Sequence record: OQ349392.1
Reading direction: 5' to 3' (one strand)
DNA from: Escherichia phage KIT06
DNA: 64,000 nucleotides
A model generated the notes under the pieces. It worked only from the letters and a program-made list of their open reading frames with translations, ran no database searches and was not told where the DNA came from. Positions 7,290-14,875 of the stretch are shown here, piece by piece. Position 1 is the first letter of the stretch, and each line of letters opens with the position of its first letter. The position numbers and the translations under genes are program-made.

Positions 7290-7471
7290 GTCTGAGTAAA
7301 GAACAAAAAGATAAATTGTTTGAGCTTATCCATGAACTTCTAGATGAGCATACAGAAGCAAACACCTTTTATGATGAATACGGCCCGCTATCTCCCGAAC
7401 AGCAAGAAGAATTTGCTGACCGGTTTGATAAGAAAGAAAACGAATTAATAGCTTATGTGAATACGCTTTAA
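7280..7471 (+). CDS. hypothetical protein
   Basis: 63 aa from ATG 7280 (ORF track 7265 is TTG); acidic. Confidence 0.4.
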   Translation: MVMSLSKEQKDKLFELIHELLDEHTEANTFYDEYGPLSPEQQEEFADRFDKKENELIAYVNTL

Positions 7472-8623: not shown

Positions 8624-9006
8624 AATTCAGCGACTTTTCACAAAGTGGAAAACCTTCAAAGGCAGATGAATACTTAGGTTTATTAATGGCTGCACAAGCT
8701 TATTTTCATTCTGCACATTTTGAAACTAAAAGTTATGCTAGACACAAAGCATACGATTTTATTTTCTCTGAGTTGCCAGATTTGATTGATAAATTTGGTG
8801 AGCAATATTTGGGGTATTCTGGTAGAAAATACACACCTTCTATTCCAGATGCCAGTAAACTTCCTACCGACACAATTAAAATGATTGATCGCATATTAGA
8901 CCAATCTAACAGCATTTACAAAGAAATGCCTCCAGCCATTCAAAGCACGATAGATGATATTACTGGAATGTTTTATCAAAGTAAATATCTTCTTTCCCTC
9001 GAATAA
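8620..9006 (+). CDS. hypothetical protein (rI.-1 position)
   Basis: 128-aa ORF, ATGA overlap with rI stop, followed by terminator. Confidence 0.55.
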
Positions 9007-9010
9007 CATT

Positions 9011-9034
9011 AGTCTCCTTCGGGAGACTTTTTTC
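9011..9034 (+). terminator. rho-independent terminator (UUCG tetraloop hairpin)
   Basis: AGTCTCC TTCG GGAGACT followed by TTTTTT. Confidence 0.75.
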
Positions 9035-9043
9035 ATTTTACCG

Positions 9044-9074
9044 GTTTACTTTCCATTTGAGCTGTGATACTATA
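9044..9074 (+). promoter_or_regulatory. T4 early-type promoter with conserved leader
   Basis: GTTTAC 9044-9049; -10 region TGATACTATACAACTATC shares the leader motif repeated at 12950, 14869, 40921. Confidence 0.5.
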
Positions 9075-9101
9075 CAACTATCGGATAAAGAGGAGAACAT
9101 C

Positions 9102-9290
9102 ATGAAAATTGAAGCACTTAATCAAGAAGGAAATATCTACGTCATCATTAATGGTGATTTTTTCGTCGACATGGATGAAGTTACCAGTGAAGAACTTGAA
9201 AAACTTCTTAAGAAACGTTATGATATGTGTGATGAAGCTGCAACTCATATGGCGTGTGCAATATTCTCTCTTTCATATGTGGTGGAATAA
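9102..9290 (+). CDS. hypothetical protein
   Basis: 62 aa from ATG 9102 with SD AGAGGAG (ORF track 9057 is a non-ATG start). Confidence 0.5.
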
Positions 9291-9493
9291 TGATTAGTAT
9301 CGAACAAGCAGATAAAATTAAAGAATTGGTAGCTTTAATTCGCAAAGCAGACGAGGAACTTAGTGACTTTGCTTGGTTTTCGGCAGGCATTGCAAATAAA
9401 GGCGCTGAAGAACTTGAAGCTAAAGTTGATAATGCTGTAGAAGCTTTAGATATGTTTCTTGATGAAATTATCGATCATAATACGAGAGTTTAA
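9290..9493 (+). CDS. hypothetical protein
   Basis: 67 aa from ATG 9290; TAATG overlap with upstream gene. Confidence 0.45.
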   Translation: MISIEQADKIKELVALIRKADEELSDFAWFSAGIANKGAEELEAKVDNAVEALDMFLDEIIDHNTRV

Positions 9494-9495
9494 GT

Positions 9496-9690
9496 ATGCT
9501 AACACGTGAACAGTTTGAAAAAATCATTAAATTAGCACGTGATATTGAAATAGATTCATACCAATTGGCAGTTGAGCATTGTGAAGGATATTCATACGAT
9601 GGTATAGAAGCAGCTAAAAAGGATTTGGATAAATCCAAAGCTAAGTTAGTTCAATATCTTGAAATGATTAGGTGGAATAATGAAAACTGA
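9496..9690 (+). CDS. hypothetical protein
   Basis: 64-aa ORF, ATG start. Confidence 0.45.
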   Translation: MLTREQFEKIIKLARDIEIDSYQLAVEHCEGYSYDGIEAAKKDLDKSKAKLVQYLEMIRWNNEN

Positions 9691-9853
9691 AAAGCAGATG
9701 TTTTTAATGAAGCTAATTGAAGAATATGCTAATGCAGTTTCTGACTATGAGTATTCTTCTCGTGAAAGAGGTACAGCTTTCGCAAAGGAAGAAATGAAAA
9801 TCATGGTTGATGCTCACACAAAGCTTCAGAATTTTATTGAAAACGTCATTTAA
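9680..9853 (+). CDS. hypothetical small protein
   Basis: 57-aa ORF below ORF-track threshold; ATG 9680 with SD AGGTGG; ends at TAA 9851-9853. Confidence 0.35.
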   Translation: MKTEKQMFLMKLIEEYANAVSDYEYSSRERGTAFAKEEMKIMVDAHTKLQNFIENVI

Positions 9854-9885: not shown

Positions 9886-10066
9886 AATCTTGTCAACTGC
9901 CAAGGAGAAGAGAATGAAAATTTTGTTTGTTGTGTATGTGATGATTCAATATAATTACCCAATGTTTACTTATAATCTAGTGAACAACATTATTGATATT
10001 ATTCAAAGGAGTATGTAATGACAAATGAACAAGCTTTTAAGTTAAGAGAATTAATTGAAACTTTAA

Positions 10067-10345
10067 TTGGTGAATAATGTGAGCTTTCCGAAATTAGAAG
10101 TAGGTGATTTAGTCTTAACAAAATTGTGGAATGATGCTCAATCAGTAGAAATCTGCCAATATCGTGGAGCAACAGGTAATTTGATGTACACGATTTATAA
10201 TCCAGAAATTTTATTAGAGTGTCATTTGGAACGCTTTATAAAAGACACTGATAGTATGCCTTATAGTGTATCGATTGTGCGTAAATCTGATACAAAGGAA
10301 TACTCTAAAATTTTAGAAAAAATTCATGCCAATAAAAAGGATTAA
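10067..10345 (+). CDS. hypothetical protein (start uncertain, non-ATG)
   Basis: 92-aa ORF with TTG/GTG candidate starts only (GTG 10079 has GGTGA upstream). Confidence 0.35.
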   Translation: MVNNVSFPKLEVGDLVLTKLWNDAQSVEICQYRGATGNLMYTIYNPEILLECHLERFIKDTDSMPYSVSIVRKSDTKEYSKILEKIHANKKD

Positions 10346-10346
10346 T

Positions 10347-10877
10347 ATGAAACGATTAGTACTAGAAGTTAGTTCACTTTTTGGTGAATTGGCTATAGAA
10401 AAAGTAAATAATATGTATCGTTTGACGCAAGAAGACGATATGCTGTATTTTACACCTAGTGAAATTATTCATTTAACCCAAATTGAAAAACCTTATACTG
10501 ATAAAATTGTAAGCATTAATGATGAGCATAAAATTCATTTCTATTCTTTATGCCCAGGATTTAACATTGAAAGCGAGTCAATATGCTTATCAATTAATAA
10601 TTGGGATAATTTTATAACTAAAATTAAATATTTTTATTATTCTAACGAAAGAAAACATGGTTTAAAATGGTTTAAAAATTGCAATGCTATTATTACTAAC
10701 GCTTGTAATCAAAATTATGAAACTGTTTTAAATGTATCAAAGTGTTACGAAGAAGGAGATGTCTTAACTATTCGTCAATCGGTAAATGATGTTAATGTTG
10801 TTGTATTAAACAAAGAAGAAGCTGTTTTATTAAAGACTTATCTTGATTCTGTCATTCCAACTATGATTTCAAAGTGA
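10347..10877 (+). CDS. hypothetical protein, paralog of 10884..11405
   Basis: 176 aa from ATG 10347; C-terminus EEAVLLKTYLDSVIPTM resembles downstream neighbour. Confidence 0.5.
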   Translation: MKRLVLEVSSLFGELAIEKVNNMYRLTQEDDMLYFTPSEIIHLTQIEKPYTDKIVSINDEHKIHFYSLCPGFNIESESICLSINNWDNFITKIKYFYYSNERKHGLKWFKNCNAIITNACNQNYETVLNVSKCYEEGDVLTIRQSVNDVNVVVLNKEEAVLLKTYLDSVIPTMISK

Positions 10878-10883
10878 GGAAAT

Positions 10884-11405
10884 ATGTTTATTTCAAGTGA
10901 AAGCGGTTTAATTCGTGTTGAATTTAAAAATGACATCTTCCTTATTCAAGGAGATGATATTATTAAAATGAGTTATGATGAAATTAAGAAAATTTGTAAT
11001 GCTCTTGAAAATCATGGAAAGGTGAATGCTGTCATTGATATTGGCGATTTATGGGTGACACTTTATGAAGTATCCGAAGGATTTAACATTGAAGATGAAA
11101 ACAACATCTTAGCTATTGATAAAAGAAGTGATTTGTTTGATGTGTTAAAAGTTTATGAACAGTCAAACGGTGGAAGAAAAGCTGCATTGATTTATCAAAA
11201 ACCACATTCATGCGGAACTGCTTCAATCATTTCAGATATTGAAGATGAAACTGATACTTATATGTGTATTTTAAAAGCTGGTGGTGACCGTCATCCGGAT
11301 TTTATTTCTATTCGTCAAAACAATGGAGAAATTTCATTATCAAAATCAGAAGCTGAAGCTATGATTAAGTATTTAACAACTGTTACACCTTCAATGAAAG
11401 GATAA
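10884..11405 (+). CDS. hypothetical protein, paralog of 10347..10877
   Basis: 173 aa; SD GAGGAA; C-terminus SEAEAMIKYLTTVTPSM resembles upstream neighbour. Confidence 0.5.
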   Translation: MFISSESGLIRVEFKNDIFLIQGDDIIKMSYDEIKKICNALENHGKVNAVIDIGDLWVTLYEVSEGFNIEDENNILAIDKRSDLFDVLKVYEQSNGGRKAALIYQKPHSCGTASIISDIEDETDTYMCILKAGGDRHPDFISIRQNNGEISLSKSEAEAMIKYLTTVTPSMKG

Positions 11406-11407
11406 TT

Positions 11408-11869
11408 ATGATTATTAATGAAAGCTCTTGGCACTATAAATTATTCAAAATGTTTAACGACGAATGGAAACGACCTAAGACACTGTGTGCATATTTTTGG
11501 TCTATTGTTATCCCTACATTTTTCGTTTCTTTTTTCGGATGTACTATACTCGCAGGTCTAACTATCATCTGCGCAGAAATCATGCAGAAATGGCTTATTT
11601 TTGGTAGTTTATGGACTCTTATTCCATCAGCATTTATACTTGCTATTTTGCTTGTTTTACTTATTATTGGTTCATTTGTTATTCCTGCACAATTGCATGA
11701 AAAATATAAAGATTATAAATGGAAAAAGGATTATGCTTTACATGTAGAAAATATTGATAGAGCGTATAAAGGTTTACCTCCTATTCAACCAAAGAAATCT
11801 ATTATCGTCGAATTTTTAAAAGCGCGTAAAGCTAAAGTATGTCCTGTTATTGAATATAAGGCTGAATGA
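11408..11869 (+). CDS. hypothetical integral membrane protein
   Basis: 153 aa with 3-4 hydrophobic helices. Confidence 0.5.
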   Translation: MIINESSWHYKLFKMFNDEWKRPKTLCAYFWSIVIPTFFVSFFGCTILAGLTIICAEIMQKWLIFGSLWTLIPSAFILAILLVLLIIGSFVIPAQLHEKYKDYKWKKDYALHVENIDRAYKGLPPIQPKKSIIVEFLKARKAKVCPVIEYKAE

Positions 11870-12879
11870 TGAAAACAGTAATGAAAAGCTATTTTGGTAG
11901 TCATCTTTATGGAACTTCTACTCCAGAATCTGATGTAGATTTTAAAGAAATCTTTGTTCCTCCTGCTCGTGATATTCTTATCGGAAATGTTAAAGAGCAT
12001 ATGAGTAAAAACACTAACAACACATCATCTAAAAACACTAAAGATGATATTGACCATGAACTATACAGTCTTAAGTATTTCTTTAAATTAGCAGCAGATG
12101 GTGAAACTGTAGCATTGGATATGCTCCACACTCCACCTGAACTGGTAGTTAAATCTGATTTGCCTGATGTATGGAAGTTTATTCAAGACAATCGTTCTCG
12201 TTTTTATACAACTAACATGAAATCTTATTTAGGATATGTCCGCAAGCAAGCTTCTAAATATGGTGTCAAGGGTTCTCGTTTGGCCGCATTGCGTGATGTA
12301 TTGAAAGTAGTTAATCAAATCCCTGAGCAATGGGTTGATTACCAAGAAGACGGTTCCATTAAGCAGCGTCGAACTAAAGTTGAAGATATTAAGCATCGTC
12401 TTCCAGAGAACGAATTCTGTGAATGGGTATTCCATAATCATGAGAAAACAGGCCCACAAACGTTCTACACTGTGTTGGGCCGTAAATATCAGACAACGCT
12501 TTCTCTTATCGAGCTTAAGCAGTCACTGAACAAATTAGATGCTGAATATGGCGAGCGCGCTCGTAAGGCTGAAGCTAATGAAGGTATTGACTGGAAAGCT
12601 CTGAGTCATGCTTGTCGTGGTGGACTCCAACTATTGGAAATTTACAAAACTGGTGACTTAGTCTATCCACTTCAAGACGCTCCTTTTATTCTCGACGTGA
12701 AGTTGGGTAAACATCCATTTAAAACTGTTCAAGAGTTTTTGGAAGATGTGGTCGATCAAGTAGAAGCAGCATCCATTGAAGCTTCTAAGAACGGTATGCA
12801 GCAAAAAGTAGATATGAGTTTCTGGGATGACTTCCTTGAGAGGGTTTATCTTGAAAACCACCGAAGTTATTATAAATGA
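11866..12879 (+). CDS. predicted nucleotidyltransferase (pol-beta superfamily fold)
   Basis: 337 aa; N-terminal motif YFGSHLYGTSTPESDVDF fits the GS...DxD nucleotidyltransferase signature; ATGA overlap with upstream gene. Confidence 0.55.
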   Translation: MMKTVMKSYFGSHLYGTSTPESDVDFKEIFVPPARDILIGNVKEHMSKNTNNTSSKNTKDDIDHELYSLKYFFKLAADGETVALDMLHTPPELVVKSDLPDVWKFIQDNRSRFYTTNMKSYLGYVRKQASKYGVKGSRLAALRDVLKVVNQIPEQWVDYQEDGSIKQRRTKVEDIKHRLPENEFCEWVFHNHEKTGPQTFYTVLGRKYQTTLSLIELKQSLNKLDAEYGERARKAEANEGIDWKALSHACRGGLQLLEIYKTGDLVYPLQDAPFILDVKLGKHPFKTVQEFLEDVVDQVEAASIEASKNGMQQKVDMSFWDDFLERVYLENHRSYYK

Positions 12880-12880
12880 T

Positions 12881-12906
12881 AGGGAGCCTTCGGGCTCCCT
12901 TTTTTG
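12881..12906 (+). terminator. rho-independent terminator (UUCG tetraloop)
   Basis: AGGGAGCC TTCG GGCTCCCT followed by TTTTTT. Confidence 0.8.
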
Positions 12907-12927
12907 TTTAAATGACGTCACAAAGTT

Positions 12928-12957
12928 GTTTACAAGCATAAAGCTTTGTGGTACTAT
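12928..12957 (+). promoter_or_regulatory. T4 early promoter with conserved leader cassette
   Basis: GTTTAC 12928-12933, TGGTACTAT -10 at 12952-12957, then leader ACAACTATCAACTGATG...GGAATAAAATG. Confidence 0.6.
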
Positions 12958-12991
12958 ACAACTATCAACTGATGTGGATTTGGGGAATAAA

Positions 12992-13141
12992 ATGAAAACT
13001 ACGTTAATTGAAGTAAAAAAGTTGATTGACACAGAAGAGATTTCAGCTTATTTTGAAAATTTCTTAGAAGATGCAACTGAAGATAACGCGGTTTATCTCG
13101 CTCAGAAAATTATAGAAACATATTTGGAGCAGAATCAATGA
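12992..13141 (+). CDS. hypothetical small protein
   Basis: 49 aa from first ATG (ORF track 12827 is a non-ATG start spanning terminator and promoter). Confidence 0.4.
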   Translation: MKTTLIEVKKLIDTEEISAYFENFLEDATEDNAVYLAQKIIETYLEQNQ

Positions 13142-13401
13142 CAGTTTACGTAGATGTTTTAATGAATCATGGATGGAAACTTCGCGGTCATCCAACTAAA
13201 AATTGTCATATGTTCACTGATGGAGATATTGAAGAGCTTCATGAAATGGCAGAAGCAATAGGAATGAAACGTTCTTGGTTTCAAGATAAACGCATTAAAC
13301 ATTATGACTTACACGCGCGGCGACGCCAAAAAGCCGTAGAACTTGGAGCTGTAGAAGTATCTCGTCGCGAAGCAGTAAAAATTTGGCGAACATTAAAATA
13401 A
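13138..13401 (+). CDS. hypothetical protein (DUF4031-like)
   Basis: 87 aa; recalled resemblance to the DUF4031 family (CHMFTDGDIEELHEMAEAIGMKRSWFQ...HYDL); not verified. Confidence 0.45.
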   Translation: MTVYVDVLMNHGWKLRGHPTKNCHMFTDGDIEELHEMAEAIGMKRSWFQDKRIKHYDLHARRRQKAVELGAVEVSRREAVKIWRTLK

Positions 13402-13404
13402 ATT

Positions 13405-13434
13405 GTTTACAGTAGGGTAGTAGTGTGATACTAT
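13405..13434 (+). promoter_or_regulatory. T4 early promoter embedded in inverted repeat
   Basis: GTTTAC 13405-13410, -10 GATACTAT; flanked by AGGGTA (13413-13418) and TACCCT (13435-13440). Confidence 0.5.
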
Positions 13435-13470
13435 TACCCTATCAAAACAAATGTGAAATTGGAGAATAAA

Positions 13471-14439
13471 ATGAAAACTGTAACTATCAATAAGGGTATC
13501 TACTTCGGTAAAGAAATCTCTGGAACTTTTGAGCTTTTAGGCGAATGGTTCCCAGATAATGCTCCGGTAGATGCACAAGGAGATGGTAAAGTTTTTGTTG
13601 AAATTGACGGTAAACGTCGCGGTGTTTGGGTTTACAAATCAGATATTTCATATGATGGTGTAAAAGTTGAAGAAGTTAAAGAATCATATGAAGATATGAA
13701 AACCCGCATTAATAAAAGATTTAATGTTATGGGAATGATGACGAATGGTATTATTAACGGAAATATTCGTTCATTGATTATCTCTGGCGCAGCAGGTATT
13801 GGTAAAACGTATTCTTTAGATAAAGCTTTAAATAAAGCAAATGATATTGGATACATTGAATATAAAAGCATTAATGGTAAAATCTCTGGTATTGGTCTTT
13901 ATGAACAGCTTTGGAATAATCGTGAAGAGAATTCTGTCCTTTTGATTGATGATGTGGATGTTTTCTCTGATATGGACATTCTTAATCTTCTAAAAGCTGC
14001 TCTGGACACTGGAGAGACCCGTAAAGTCTGCTGGAGCACTGCATCTTCTTACTTAGAAGAAAAAGGCATTGACCGTGAGTTTGAATTTAAAGGAACGATT
14101 GTTTTTATCACAAACGTTGACATTGACCGCGAATTAGACCGTGGTACTAAACTTGCCCCACACTTACAAGCATTAGTGTCCCGCTCAGTTTATTTGGATT
14201 TGGGTGTTCACACTAATGAAGAAATTATGGTCAGGGTTGAAGATGTTATTCTTTCAACTGACATGATGCAAAAGCGCGGTCTTTCTGATGAAGAAACTTA
14301 TAAAGCATTATCATGGATGAAAGTTAATGTTAATCGTTTACGCAATGTTTCACTGCGTACTGCTCTTTATCTTGCTGACTTTATTATGACCGACAAAAAC
14401 GGTTGGGAAGAAATTGCTGAGGTTACTCTTCTGAAATAA
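13471..14439 (+). CDS. AAA+-type ATPase
   Basis: 322 aa from ATG 13471; Walker A ISGAAGIGKTYS, Walker B VLLIDDVD; SD GGAGAA. Confidence 0.6.
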   Translation: MKTVTINKGIYFGKEISGTFELLGEWFPDNAPVDAQGDGKVFVEIDGKRRGVWVYKSDISYDGVKVEEVKESYEDMKTRINKRFNVMGMMTNGIINGNIRSLIISGAAGIGKTYSLDKALNKANDIGYIEYKSINGKISGIGLYEQLWNNREENSVLLIDDVDVFSDMDILNLLKAALDTGETRKVCWSTASSYLEEKGIDREFEFKGTIVFITNVDIDRELDRGTKLAPHLQALVSRSVYLDLGVHTNEEIMVRVEDVILSTDMMQKRGLSDEETYKALSWMKVNVNRLRNVSLRTALYLADFIMTDKNGWEEIAEVTLLK

Positions 14440-14540
14440 TTCATAAGAGGACTTCTATGACAAAAAGGCAGTTCAGAAATAGATTATATGGACTGCCATC
14501 AAAAAGATGACTAGAATTAAACTGGTGAATGGAGGTAGTG

Positions 14541-14843
14541 ATGTTATACTCAAAGGCTCGTGAAATTTACGAAACTAAGATTAAAGAAGCTGTATTTCAA
14601 TTCGCAACGACAATGCGATGGACAAATGATTGGGAATATTCAAAAAATCATAAGAAGCCCTTGGTGACAAGAAAGGCTCATATGTTAGTGTTAATAGACC
14701 GTGAGCAGATTAAAGCCCGAGAAGCCCTCCAGAATCATAAAAAGGCTGCCTTTGAATGGTTTATGGATAACACTGCTCCTGAGACTAAGAAAGCAGTGAG
14801 CGCTTGGTTCAGTGGAAAAAATTGTGAAAGAAGTTTCTTTTAG
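14541..14843 (+). CDS. hypothetical protein
   Basis: 100 aa from ATG 14541 with SD GGAGG. Confidence 0.45.
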   Translation: MLYSKAREIYETKIKEAVFQFATTMRWTNDWEYSKNHKKPLVTRKAHMLVLIDREQIKAREALQNHKKAAFEWFMDNTAPETKKAVSAWFSGKNCERSFF

Positions 14844-14845
14844 TG

Positions 14846-14875
14846 GTTTACAAGACTGTTCCTCTGTGGTACTAT
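14846..14875 (+). promoter_or_regulatory. T4 early promoter with conserved leader cassette
   Basis: GTTTAC 14846-14851, TGGTACTAT -10 at 14870-14875; 9-bp inverted repeat CTGTTCCTC/GAGGAACAG at 14856-14864 and 14892-14900. Confidence 0.6.

What the first reader, a model, noticed from the sequence alone, without database searches (positions are those of the whole stretch)
11866..14439. Uncharacterised early cluster: nucleotidyltransferase, DUF4031-like protein and AAA+ ATPase
A 337-aa protein with a pol-beta-type nucleotidyltransferase signature (GSHLYGTSTPESDVDF) is followed by a terminator, then two promoter-driven units: a 49-aa peptide plus an 87-aa DUF4031-like protein, and a 322-aa AAA+ ATPase. 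Nucleotidyltransferase and ATPase combinations are typical of nucleotide-signalling or anti-defence modules. Function here is unknown.
Basis: inference. Interest (0 to 1): 0.5.

Follow-up and report, generated by a model that had tools for sequence, protein, structure and literature searches.

The report
T4 nrdC.11, nrdC.10 and DUF4031 cassette
This stretch holds three separately transcribed early genes of a T4-type phage: a likely RNA-repair enzyme already catalogued as NrdC.11, an ATPase of unknown role (NrdC.10), and a small mobile two-gene insert of unknown function. They do not form a joint signalling module.

Summary
The window is a Tequatrovirus, and the region is T4 nrdC.11 to nrdC.10, which has been catalogued since 2006.

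- **NrdC.11** belongs to the RlaP family (PF10127). A 2025 preprint shows that RlaP enzymes add 1-2 NMPs to RNA 3'-OH ends, and it names T4 NrdC.11 as a member. In distant phages I find NrdC.11-clade genes beside Rnl1-type RNA ligase and polynucleotide kinase genes. One contig carries a compact Pnkp-RlaP-Rnl1 cassette.
- **NrdC.10** is a true AAA+ ATPase with every catalytic motif invariant. It matches no curated family, and its function is unknown.
- **The 49-aa ORF plus DUF4031 pair** is a 477-479 bp insert that T4 lacks. It is bounded by a direct repeat of the early promoter and leader (PeSL-type), and it sits elsewhere in other genera.

NrdC.10 and NrdC.11 are adjacent only in close T-even relatives. 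That is 0 of 60 distant NrdC.10 loci and 0 of 44 distant NrdC.11 loci. No CD-NTase or defence-model match was found.

Verdict: these are known genes, not a module. "Anti-defence" is plausible only for NrdC.11, through tRNA repair. The cassette is the only unexplained part. Interest is low.

The parts
11866..12879 (+). nrdC.11: RlaP-family (PF10127) pol-beta nucleotidyltransferase, 337 aa. Motif G11-S12...D23-x-D25; the third carboxylate is probably D61 or D63.
   Evidence: phrog_388, E 5e-137; 98.5% identical to T4 NrdC.11; invariant residues; PMC12776372
12881..12906 (+). Intrinsic terminator after nrdC.11: 8-bp GC-rich stem, UUCG loop, T6 tract.
   Evidence: -16.2 kcal/mol, z -3.7; conserved in T4
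12928..12957 (+). T4-type early promoter GTTTACA-N17-TACTAT. With the terminator it forms a PeSL-type composite element. In T4 this same promoter and leader drives nrdC.10.
   Evidence: PMC4122927
12992..13141 (+). 49-aa acidic (pI 4.1) ORF, phrog_6888, translationally coupled (ATGA) to DUF4031. Conserved as a pair with DUF4031 in other Tevenvirinae genera.
   Evidence: (41-45% identical in L011, L012, L015)
13138..13401 (+). 87-aa DUF4031 (PF13223) protein, basic (pI 9.7). Invariant residues: D6, H24, Q49, H55-Y56-D57, G70.
   Evidence: (pLDDT 93)
13405..13442 (+). Second early promoter GTTTACA-N17-TACTAT (13405-13434) with an embedded 14-bp hairpin (13412-13442, -17.8 kcal/mol). It drives nrdC.10.
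   Evidence: (I5)
13471..14439 (+). nrdC.10: AAA+ ATPase, 322 aa. N-terminal beta domain at residues 1-62; AAA+ core and lid at residues 73-322. Walker A K112, Walker B D160/D161, sensor-1 N215, Arg finger R238, sensor-2 R296.
   Evidence: (phrog_1250)
12923..13000 (+). Left copy of the direct repeat (promoter, leader, RBS, ATGAAAACT) that bounds the 477-479 bp cassette. The right copy is at 13400-13479.
   Evidence: families D1, D3, D4, spacing 477-479
13400..13479 (+). Right copy of the direct repeat bounding the cassette.

Best explanation
The region holds three independent early transcription units of a T-even phage.

**1. NrdC.11.** This is an RlaP-family nucleotidyltransferase. By homology to the characterised Pseudomonas RlaPs, it most likely uses its G-S...D-x-D...D active site (Mn2+-dependent in the characterised enzymes) to add one or two NMPs to the 3'-OH of broken RNA. 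In infection it would work with the phage's polynucleotide kinase/phosphatase (PseT) and RNA ligase 1. Together they would restore tRNAs from which a host anticodon nuclease has not only cut but also removed a nucleotide (RloC-type). That makes it a counter-defence by RNA repair. Shown here: family membership, motif integrity, and genomic linkage of clade members to RNA ligase and kinase genes. Inferred: the activity and the in vivo role of the phage enzyme.

**2. The 49-aa plus DUF4031 pair.** This is a self-contained accessory cassette, inserted or excised by recombination between repeated early-promoter/leader (PeSL-type) sequences. It is carried by roughly a third of close relatives. DUF4031 is a small basic protein with an invariant Asp/His cluster. 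It is most likely a metal-dependent enzyme or a nucleic-acid-binding protein, with the acidic peptide as its partner. Its function is not established.

**3. NrdC.10.** This is a catalytically competent AAA+ ATPase, conserved across T4-like phages including marine ones. It is most likely an oligomeric remodelling ATPase whose variable N-terminal domain picks the target. The target is unknown.

The three units are neighbours through hyperplastic-region synteny, not through a shared function.
For: **NrdC.11**
- Pfam RlaP at 44.1 bits against a cutoff of 23.
- 98.5% identical to T4 NrdC.11.
- PMC12776372 gives the RlaP activity and names T4 NrdC.11. PMC7824862 makes the same prediction for phage RlaPs.
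- G11, S12, D23 and D25 are invariant in 38 clade members of 26-50% identity.
- Clade members lie next to RNA_lig_T4_1 ligases and AAA_33/HD or AAA_33/HAD_PNKP kinases in at least four lineages. L129 has overlapping Pnkp-RlaP-Rnl1 genes.
- T4 itself encodes rnlA and pseT.

**Independence of the units**
- Terminator plus two promoters.
- T4 lacks the cassette.
- The cassette is elsewhere in JD18 and CGG4-1.
- No NrdC.11 within 10 kb in 60 distant NrdC.10 loci. No NrdC.10 in 44 distant NrdC.11 loci, nor in 8 of 23 close ones.

**Cassette mobility**
- Direct repeat of promoter, leader and the first three codons, spaced 477-479 bp apart.
- The promoters match the PeSL consensus TTTACW-N17-TAYWAT of the PST/T4 pair.

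**NrdC.10**
- Model pLDDT 89.8.
- Walker A, Walker B, sensor 1, Arg finger and sensor 2 are invariant across 46 sequences down to 21% identity.
Against: - No experiment exists on NrdC.11 itself. It lies in a different RlaP sequence cluster (cluster 5) from the enzymes that were assayed (cluster 1a).
- In T-even phages nrdC.11 is not next to rnlA or pseT.
- nrdC.11 to mobD.3 can be deleted from T4 without loss of viability on lab hosts, so any role is conditional.
- The ligase linkage is seen in only about 9-11 of 44 distant loci, several of them closely related.
- NrdC.10's AAA+ clade is unresolved. Structure favours MoxR-like or PS1-hairpin clades, while the sequence profile favours RFC or Cdc6.
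Confidence: 0.6

Rival explanations
1. The NTase, DUF4031 and the AAA+ ATPase act together as one nucleotide-second-messenger or anti-CBASS/Thoeris module.
For: The genes are adjacent and all expressed early. NTase plus ATPase pairs do occur in signalling and defence systems (general knowledge).
Against: - Separate transcription units.
- The cassette is absent from T4 and located elsewhere in other genera.
- No co-occurrence of NrdC.10 and NrdC.11 beyond close T-evens.
- No PADLOC hit for any protein.
- The NTase matches RlaP, not the CD-NTase/SMODS families.
Confidence: 0.04
2. NrdC.10 and NrdC.11 cooperate specifically in T-even phages. For example, the AAA+ ATPase could unfold or release nuclease-bound or damaged tRNA/RNP so that the RlaP, kinase and ligase can act. 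DUF4031 would be an unrelated insert.
Against: - 8 of 23 close loci have nrdC.11 without nrdC.10 within 10 kb.
- All 104 distant loci have one gene without the other.
- 0 of 69 NrdC.10 loci carry an RNA ligase.
- A terminator and a separate promoter lie between the two genes.
Confidence: 0.1
3. NrdC.11 is a pol-beta NTase with a non-RNA substrate. Examples would be a protein- or small-molecule nucleotidylyltransferase such as an MNT/AbiEii-type antitoxin, or an aminoglycoside NTase.
For: The N-terminal motif also gives weak hits to NTP_transf_2 (E 0.07) and MntA (E 0.06). The phage clade has not been assayed.
Against: - Those hits are far below their cutoffs, while RlaP is above its cutoff.
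- Characterised RlaPs label RNA but neither DNA nor protein.
- There is no HEPN or toxin partner gene nearby.
- Clade members are linked to RNA ligase and Pnkp genes.
Confidence: 0.1
4. The 49-aa/DUF4031 pair is a toxin-antitoxin-like or anti-defence cassette. A basic His/Asp enzyme would act on nucleic acid or a nucleotide signal, held in check or guided by the acidic peptide.
For: - Opposite charges (pI 4.1 against 9.7) and conserved ATGA coupling across genera.
- Invariant D6, H24 and H55-Y56-D57.
- Patchy, mobile distribution in phages and prophages: 7365 clusters, 336 phage records.
Against: - No homology to any known toxin, antitoxin or anti-defence family.
- No structural relative.
- The acidic partner is not found beside DUF4031 outside T4-like phages.
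Confidence: 0.15

Closest known systems
T4 NrdC.11 / RlaP family (PF10127, formerly COG3541); characterised members PfRlaP and PaRlaP (PMC12776372)
   Same: - 98.5% identical to T4 NrdC.11.
- Pfam RlaP match above the cutoff.
- Pol-beta G-S...D-x-D motif.
- About 330 aa, with an NTase domain and a C-terminal region.
- Clade members sit beside RNA ligase and polynucleotide kinase genes.
   Different: - It lies in a different sequence cluster (5) from the assayed enzymes (1a).
- In T-even phages the gene is not adjacent to the ligase or kinase genes.
- The partner ligase would be the 5'-phosphate ligase Rnl1 rather than RtcB.
- Its activity has not been tested.
T4 NrdC.10 (phrog_1250), an uncharacterised AAA+ ATPase. 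Structurally nearest are the MoxR-type NorQ/CbbQ and sigma54 activators; by sequence profile nearest is RFC small subunit/Cdc6.
   Same: - 99% identical to T4 NrdC.10.
- AAA+ core with Walker A and B, sensor 1, Arg finger (SRS here, SRC in distant homologues), sensor 2 and a lid domain.
- An insertion before sensor 1, as in the PS1-hairpin clades.
   Different: - No curated family is matched above its cutoff.
- Walker B is DD rather than DE.
- It has its own N-terminal beta domain.
- No VWA partner (as MoxR has) and no clamp or origin context.
DUF4031 (PF13223)
   Same: A clear family member (E 8e-22), standalone and about 90 aa like most of the family.
   Different: In T4-like phages it is coupled to a lineage-specific acidic 49-54 aa ORF. 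The family has no known function or solved structure.
PeSL (promoter-early stem-loop) mobile regulatory cassettes of T4-type phages (PMC2839356, PMC4122927)
   Same: - Stem-loop plus early promoter matching TTTACW-N17-TAYWAT.
- Two tandem copies flank an ORF pair that is present or absent between close relatives, in a hyperplastic region.
   Different: - In the second copy the hairpin lies inside the promoter spacer and has no T-tract.
- The repeat extends through the leader and the first three codons.
- The recombination event is inferred, not observed.
T4 PseT/Rnl1 tRNA repair pathway against the PrrC anticodon nuclease
   Same: The proposed role for NrdC.11 is an added end-healing step in this pathway.
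   Different: PseT and Rnl1 only heal and seal ends. NrdC.11 would replace excised nucleotides, which matters against RloC-type nucleases (PMC2610378). This has not been shown for T4.

Membership tests
RlaP (PF10127) nucleotidyltransferase | Match to the family HMM above the curated cutoff | tested here: met
   44.1 bits against a cutoff of 23, E 2.7e-11. Distant clade members score 56-63 bits.
RlaP (PF10127) nucleotidyltransferase | Pol-beta NTase catalytic motif hG[GS]-x9-13-Dh[DE]h plus a third carboxylate | tested here: met
   G11, S12, D23 and D25 are invariant in 38 sequences. D61 and D63 are also invariant, but the KNTKDD motif was one of the patterns used to collect the loci. The assignment of the third Asp is therefore an inference.
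RlaP (PF10127) nucleotidyltransferase | Genomic association with RNA ligase / RNA-repair genes | tested here: inconclusive
   Not met in the window or in T4, where rnlA and pseT lie about 80 kb away. Met in distant clade members L108-L117, L127 and L129.
RlaP (PF10127) nucleotidyltransferase | N-terminal NTase domain plus C-terminal helical domain forming a cleft | not tested
The Pfam match covers only residues 7-135.
RlaP (PF10127) nucleotidyltransferase | Adds 1-2 NMP to RNA 3'-OH (Mn2+-dependent) | not testable with these tools
   Biochemistry exists only for PfRlaP and PaRlaP (PMC12776372).
AAA+ ATPase | AAA+ fold with Walker A, Walker B, sensor 1, Arg finger, sensor 2 and lid | tested here: met
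MoxR / NorQ / CbbQ AAA+ subfamily | Match to AAA_3 or AAA_5 family models and a VWA-domain partner gene | tested here: not met
   The window protein does not hit AAA_5 or AAA_3. Only 10 of 46 family members hit AAA_5, and weakly. No VWA gene lies nearby. The resemblance is structural only.
Clamp-loader / RFC clade | Family-level sequence match, SRC motif, clamp/polymerase context | tested here: inconclusive
   The profile hits RFC4 at E 6e-5, over the P-loop region only. The motif is SRS here and SRC in distant homologues. The phage has its own gp44/62 elsewhere, and the model shows an extra insertion before sensor 1.
DUF4031 (PF13223) | Match to the family HMM above the curated cutoff | tested here: met
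   77.7 bits against a cutoff of 25.6.
CD-NTase / CBASS-type or other defence-related signalling module | Homology to CD-NTase or other defence-system models, and a conserved operon with an effector or partner | tested here: not met
   No PADLOC hit for any of the four proteins at E <= 0.1. No CD-NTase family appears in Pfam. Gene linkage is not conserved.
PeSL mobile regulatory cassette | Stem-loop plus early promoter, in tandem copies flanking variable ORFs | tested here: met
   Hairpins and promoters. Repeat spacing of 477-479 bp, and the exact presence/absence difference from T4. Consensus taken from PMC4122927.

The most novel reading that the evidence does not exclude
The 49-aa acidic peptide plus DUF4031 pair could be a previously unrecognised mobile two-component accessory module. 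DUF4031 would be a minimal (about 80-residue) His/Asp metalloenzyme with no solved structural relative, controlled or targeted by the acidic partner. It would act on host or phage nucleic acid, or on a defence signal, early in infection. The family is very large (7365 clusters at 50% identity) and wholly uncharacterised.
Probability: 0.12. Interest if true: 0.55.

Novelty: already known. Interest (0 to 1): 0.2.

Why it matters
The finding mainly serves as a correction. Two of the genes are the long-catalogued T4 ORFs nrdC.11 and nrdC.10, which GenBank often mislabels as "thioredoxin". The NTase now has a concrete, testable biochemical assignment: RlaP, an RNA 3'-end nucleotide adder.

If NrdC.11 really replaces nucleotides excised by RloC-type anticodon nucleases, that would fill a known gap in the T4 tRNA-repair story. 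It would explain how a phage can repair damage designed to defeat heal-and-seal repair. This idea has already been published as a prediction.

NrdC.10 and DUF4031 remain true unknowns with very wide distribution in phages, so they are reasonable targets for functional screens. Nothing here points to a specific new mechanism for either.

Tried and rejected
- **PDB sequence searches.** Searches with the three single proteins found nothing useful. A family profile of NrdC.10 reached only generic AAA+ proteins, with RFC4 best at E 6e-5.
- **Other libraries.** PADLOC gave no hits and NCBIfam gave only noise-level hits.
- **DUF4031 family search.** An exhaustive profile search found 7365 clusters, but the longer members carry no second Pfam domain.
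- **DUF4031 neighbourhoods.** Three distant phage or prophage contexts showed no recurring partner.
- **Unavailable library.** The afdb50 fold library was not available.
- **Literature.** 'PF13223' retrieves only a paper where it is evidently a slip for a Complex1_LYR family. 'DUF4031' retrieves only a table entry. 'nrdC.10' and 'nrdC.11' return no functional study.
- **nrdC.4/5/6 paralogy.** I suspected this by eye, but BLASTP does not support it (E 0.2-0.6).
Full report
**What is there**

The window has about 35% GC, and every ORF and promoter of interest is on the + strand. The queried stretch (window 11800-14500, covering the finding) matches 747 phage records, mostly Tequatrovirus, at up to 97.5% identity. 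Comparison with the T4 reference shows that the finding covers T4 nrdC.11 and nrdC.10 in the nrdC-mobD hyperplastic region, read in the direction of early transcription.

The four ORFs are:
- nrdC.11, 11866-12879, 337 aa
- a 49-aa ORF, 12992-13141
- an 87-aa ORF, 13138-13401, overlapping the previous one through ATGA
- nrdC.10, 13471-14439, 322 aa

A strong intrinsic terminator follows nrdC.11: hairpin 12881-12900 plus T6, -16.2 kcal/mol, z -3.7. Two T4-type early promoters, GTTTACA-N17-TACTAT, lie at 12928-12957 and 13405-13434. This promoter pattern occurs 14 times in the window, always on the + strand, against 0.04 expected by chance.

**The nucleotidyltransferase (NrdC.11)**

NrdC.11 matches Pfam RlaP (PF10127) at 44.1 bits against a cutoff of 23, and phrog_388 at E 5e-137. 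Hits to generic NTP_transf_2 and to MntA are at noise level. No defence-system model matches.

A December 2025 preprint (PMC12776372) characterises two Pseudomonas RlaPs. They add one or two NMPs to the 3'-OH of RNA, and do not act on DNA or protein. They prefer Mn2+ and a cleaved-tRNA mimic, and they improve aminoacylation of a repaired tRNA that had lost a nucleotide. The crystal structure shows an NTase domain and a helical domain with three strictly conserved Asp residues. The preprint places T4 NrdC.11 in RlaP cluster 5. It proposes RlaP as the antidote to "smart" ribotoxins such as RloC, which excise a nucleotide after cutting. A 2021 comparative-genomics review of jumbo phages makes the same prediction (PMC7824862). 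The COG3541 NTase assignment of nrdC.11 dates from 2006 (PMC1524935).

I tested two points for the phage clade itself.

*Catalytic residues.* In 38 non-identical clade members from viral contigs (26-50% identical to the window protein), G11, S12, S22, D23 and D25 are invariant, as is R251 in the C-terminal part. The KNTKDDxD motif at residues 56-63 is also invariant and probably supplies the third carboxylate. However, that motif was one of the scan patterns, so its invariance is partly by construction.

*Gene neighbourhoods.* In the distant loci the most frequent recurring neighbours are two proteins of 373 aa. One is an HD plus AAA_33 kinase protein; the other is a RNA_lig_T4_1 ligase 31-37% identical to T4 Rnl1. 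In L129 three genes lie head to tail, with the last two overlapping: a PseT-type kinase/HAD phosphatase (8899-9834), the RlaP (10001-10981) and an Rnl1-type ligase (10971-12020). L127 also has an Rnl1-type ligase within 5 kb. None of the 69 NrdC.10 loci carries an RNA ligase.

T4 itself encodes rnlA and pseT, far from nrdC.11. The linkage appears in only about a quarter of the distant loci, and several of those are related. It therefore supports the RNA-repair role for this clade but does not prove it. nrdC.11 is dispensable on laboratory hosts (PMC9825161), as expected for a conditional counter-defence gene.

**The ATPase (NrdC.10)**

No Pfam, NCBIfam or PADLOC family reaches its cutoff. AAA_14, AAA_22 and nSTAND3 are sub-threshold. 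The AlphaFold model, built on a 49-sequence alignment, has mean pLDDT 89.8. It shows a five-stranded N-terminal beta domain (residues 1-62), a poorly modelled linker, and an AAA+ core with lid (residues 73-322).

A family profile that includes marine and jumbo-phage homologues points a different way. Against PDB sequences it hits RFC4 best (E 6e-5), then Cdc6. Distant homologues carry SRC where the window protein has SRS. The AAA+ clade is therefore unresolved.

What is clear is that the enzyme should be active. G106, G109, G111 and K112 (Walker A), D160 and D161 (Walker B), N215 (sensor 1), R238 (Arg finger) and R296 (sensor 2) are invariant across 46 sequences down to 21% identity. The N-terminal domain is replaced or missing in some homologues, as expected for a target-selection domain. 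The family occurs in 1311 phage records. In 11 marine T4-like contigs a UvsW-like helicase lies one or two genes downstream. I did not establish whether that is more than synteny.

**The DUF4031 cassette**

The 87-aa protein is a clear DUF4031 member. D6, H24, L34, A38, Q49, H55, Y56, D57 and G70 are invariant in 59 sequences down to 40% identity to the window protein. The model is confident, with pLDDT 93.4, but it has no significant relative among solved structures.

The family is very large, at 7365 clusters of 50% identity. It is nearly always a standalone protein of 90-130 residues, and ten longer members carry no second domain. Neighbourhoods in distant phages and prophages show no recurring partner.

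Within T4-like phages, DUF4031 always travels with the small upstream ORF. That ORF is 41-45% identical in Jiaodavirus, Gelderlandvirus and a Citrobacter phage. It is acidic in all of them (pI about 4.1, against 9.7 for DUF4031) and keeps the ATGA overlap.

Alignment with T4 shows that T4 goes straight from the terminator and first promoter into nrdC.10. The window has 477-479 extra bases. The extra segment is bounded by a direct repeat of promoter, leader, RBS and the first three codons, ATGAAAACT (12923-13000 against 13400-13479). This is the signature of PeSL-mediated insertion or excision described for T4-type phages. The promoters fit the published PST/T4 consensus (PMC2839356, PMC4122927).

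In JD18 and CGG4-1 the pair lies about 2 kb downstream of nrdC.10 instead. About 158 phage records carry a DUF4031 at least 90% identical to this one, against about 502 records with NrdC.10 at least 95% identical. Roughly a third of close relatives therefore have the cassette.

**Is it a module?**

No. Beyond the transcriptional separation and the mobility of the cassette, the distribution data argue against it.
- NrdC.11 is found within 10 kb of NrdC.10 only in the nine closest NrdC.10 loci (at least 66% identity). It is found in none of 60 more distant ones.
- Among NrdC.11 loci, 15 of 23 close ones have NrdC.10 downstream. None of the 44 distant ones does.

One caveat applies: tblastn at E 1e-3 could miss very remote homologues.

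**Verdict**

The domain calls and the layout are right. The "cluster" reading and the nucleotide-signalling idea are not supported. NrdC.11 is already assigned to a family with a known reaction, and a published, plausible counter-defence role in tRNA repair. NrdC.10 and DUF4031 are widespread true unknowns for which I can offer only generic mechanisms. The only modest additions here are two: the Pnkp-RlaP-Rnl1 linkage within the NrdC.11 clade, and the definition of the 49-aa/DUF4031 pair as a PeSL-bounded mobile cassette.

Noticed in passing
window 11408-11869 (+): A 153-aa predicted membrane protein (phrog_944) sits immediately upstream of nrdC.11, overlapping its start. T4 has the HNH homing endonuclease mobD at this position instead, so this side of nrdC.11 is also a replacement hotspot.
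   Followed up: partly
window 10326-10877 and 10884-11405 (+): Two adjacent ORFs of 183 and 173 aa are paralogues (27% identity over 174 residues, E 6e-10). This is a tandem duplication of an unknown early protein.
   Followed up: partly
window, 14 sites from 5224 to 59704 (+): GTTTACW-N17-TAYWAT early-promoter matches occur 14 times, all on the + strand, against 0.04 expected. Another lies at 14846-14875, just downstream of nrdC.9.
   Followed up: partly
L129 8899-12020: A metagenomic viral contig carries a compact three-gene RNA-repair cassette: a PseT-type kinase/HAD phosphatase, an NrdC.11-like RlaP and an Rnl1-type ligase. The last two genes overlap.
   Followed up: yes
L127 12673-14112: A 479-aa DUF2828 + DUF7788 protein lies between the RlaP and an Rnl1-type ligase in another viral contig. 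It could be a further RNA-repair-associated component.
   Followed up: no
L028-L069 (11 loci, e.g. L030 11459-12904, L041 10895-12352): In marine T4-like contigs a UvsW-like SF2 helicase lies one or two genes downstream of the NrdC.10 homologue, often followed by a conserved 167-aa ORF. This may be synteny or a functional hint.
   Followed up: partly
GenBank records under: NrdC.10 and NrdC.11 homologues are widely mis-annotated as 'thioredoxin', evidently propagated from the gene names nrdC.x. One NrdC.11 is labelled 'HNH homing endonuclease'.
   Followed up: no
window 14529-14843 (+): nrdC.9, downstream of nrdC.10, is a DUF7203 protein (PF23833, E 2e-15). It is another conserved unknown.
   Followed up: no
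L071-L080 (e.g. L071 9317-10825): A distant branch of the NrdC.10 family has about 500 aa, with a different 270-residue N-terminal region. It sits after large ORFs of 564 and 607 aa that have no Pfam match.
   Followed up: no
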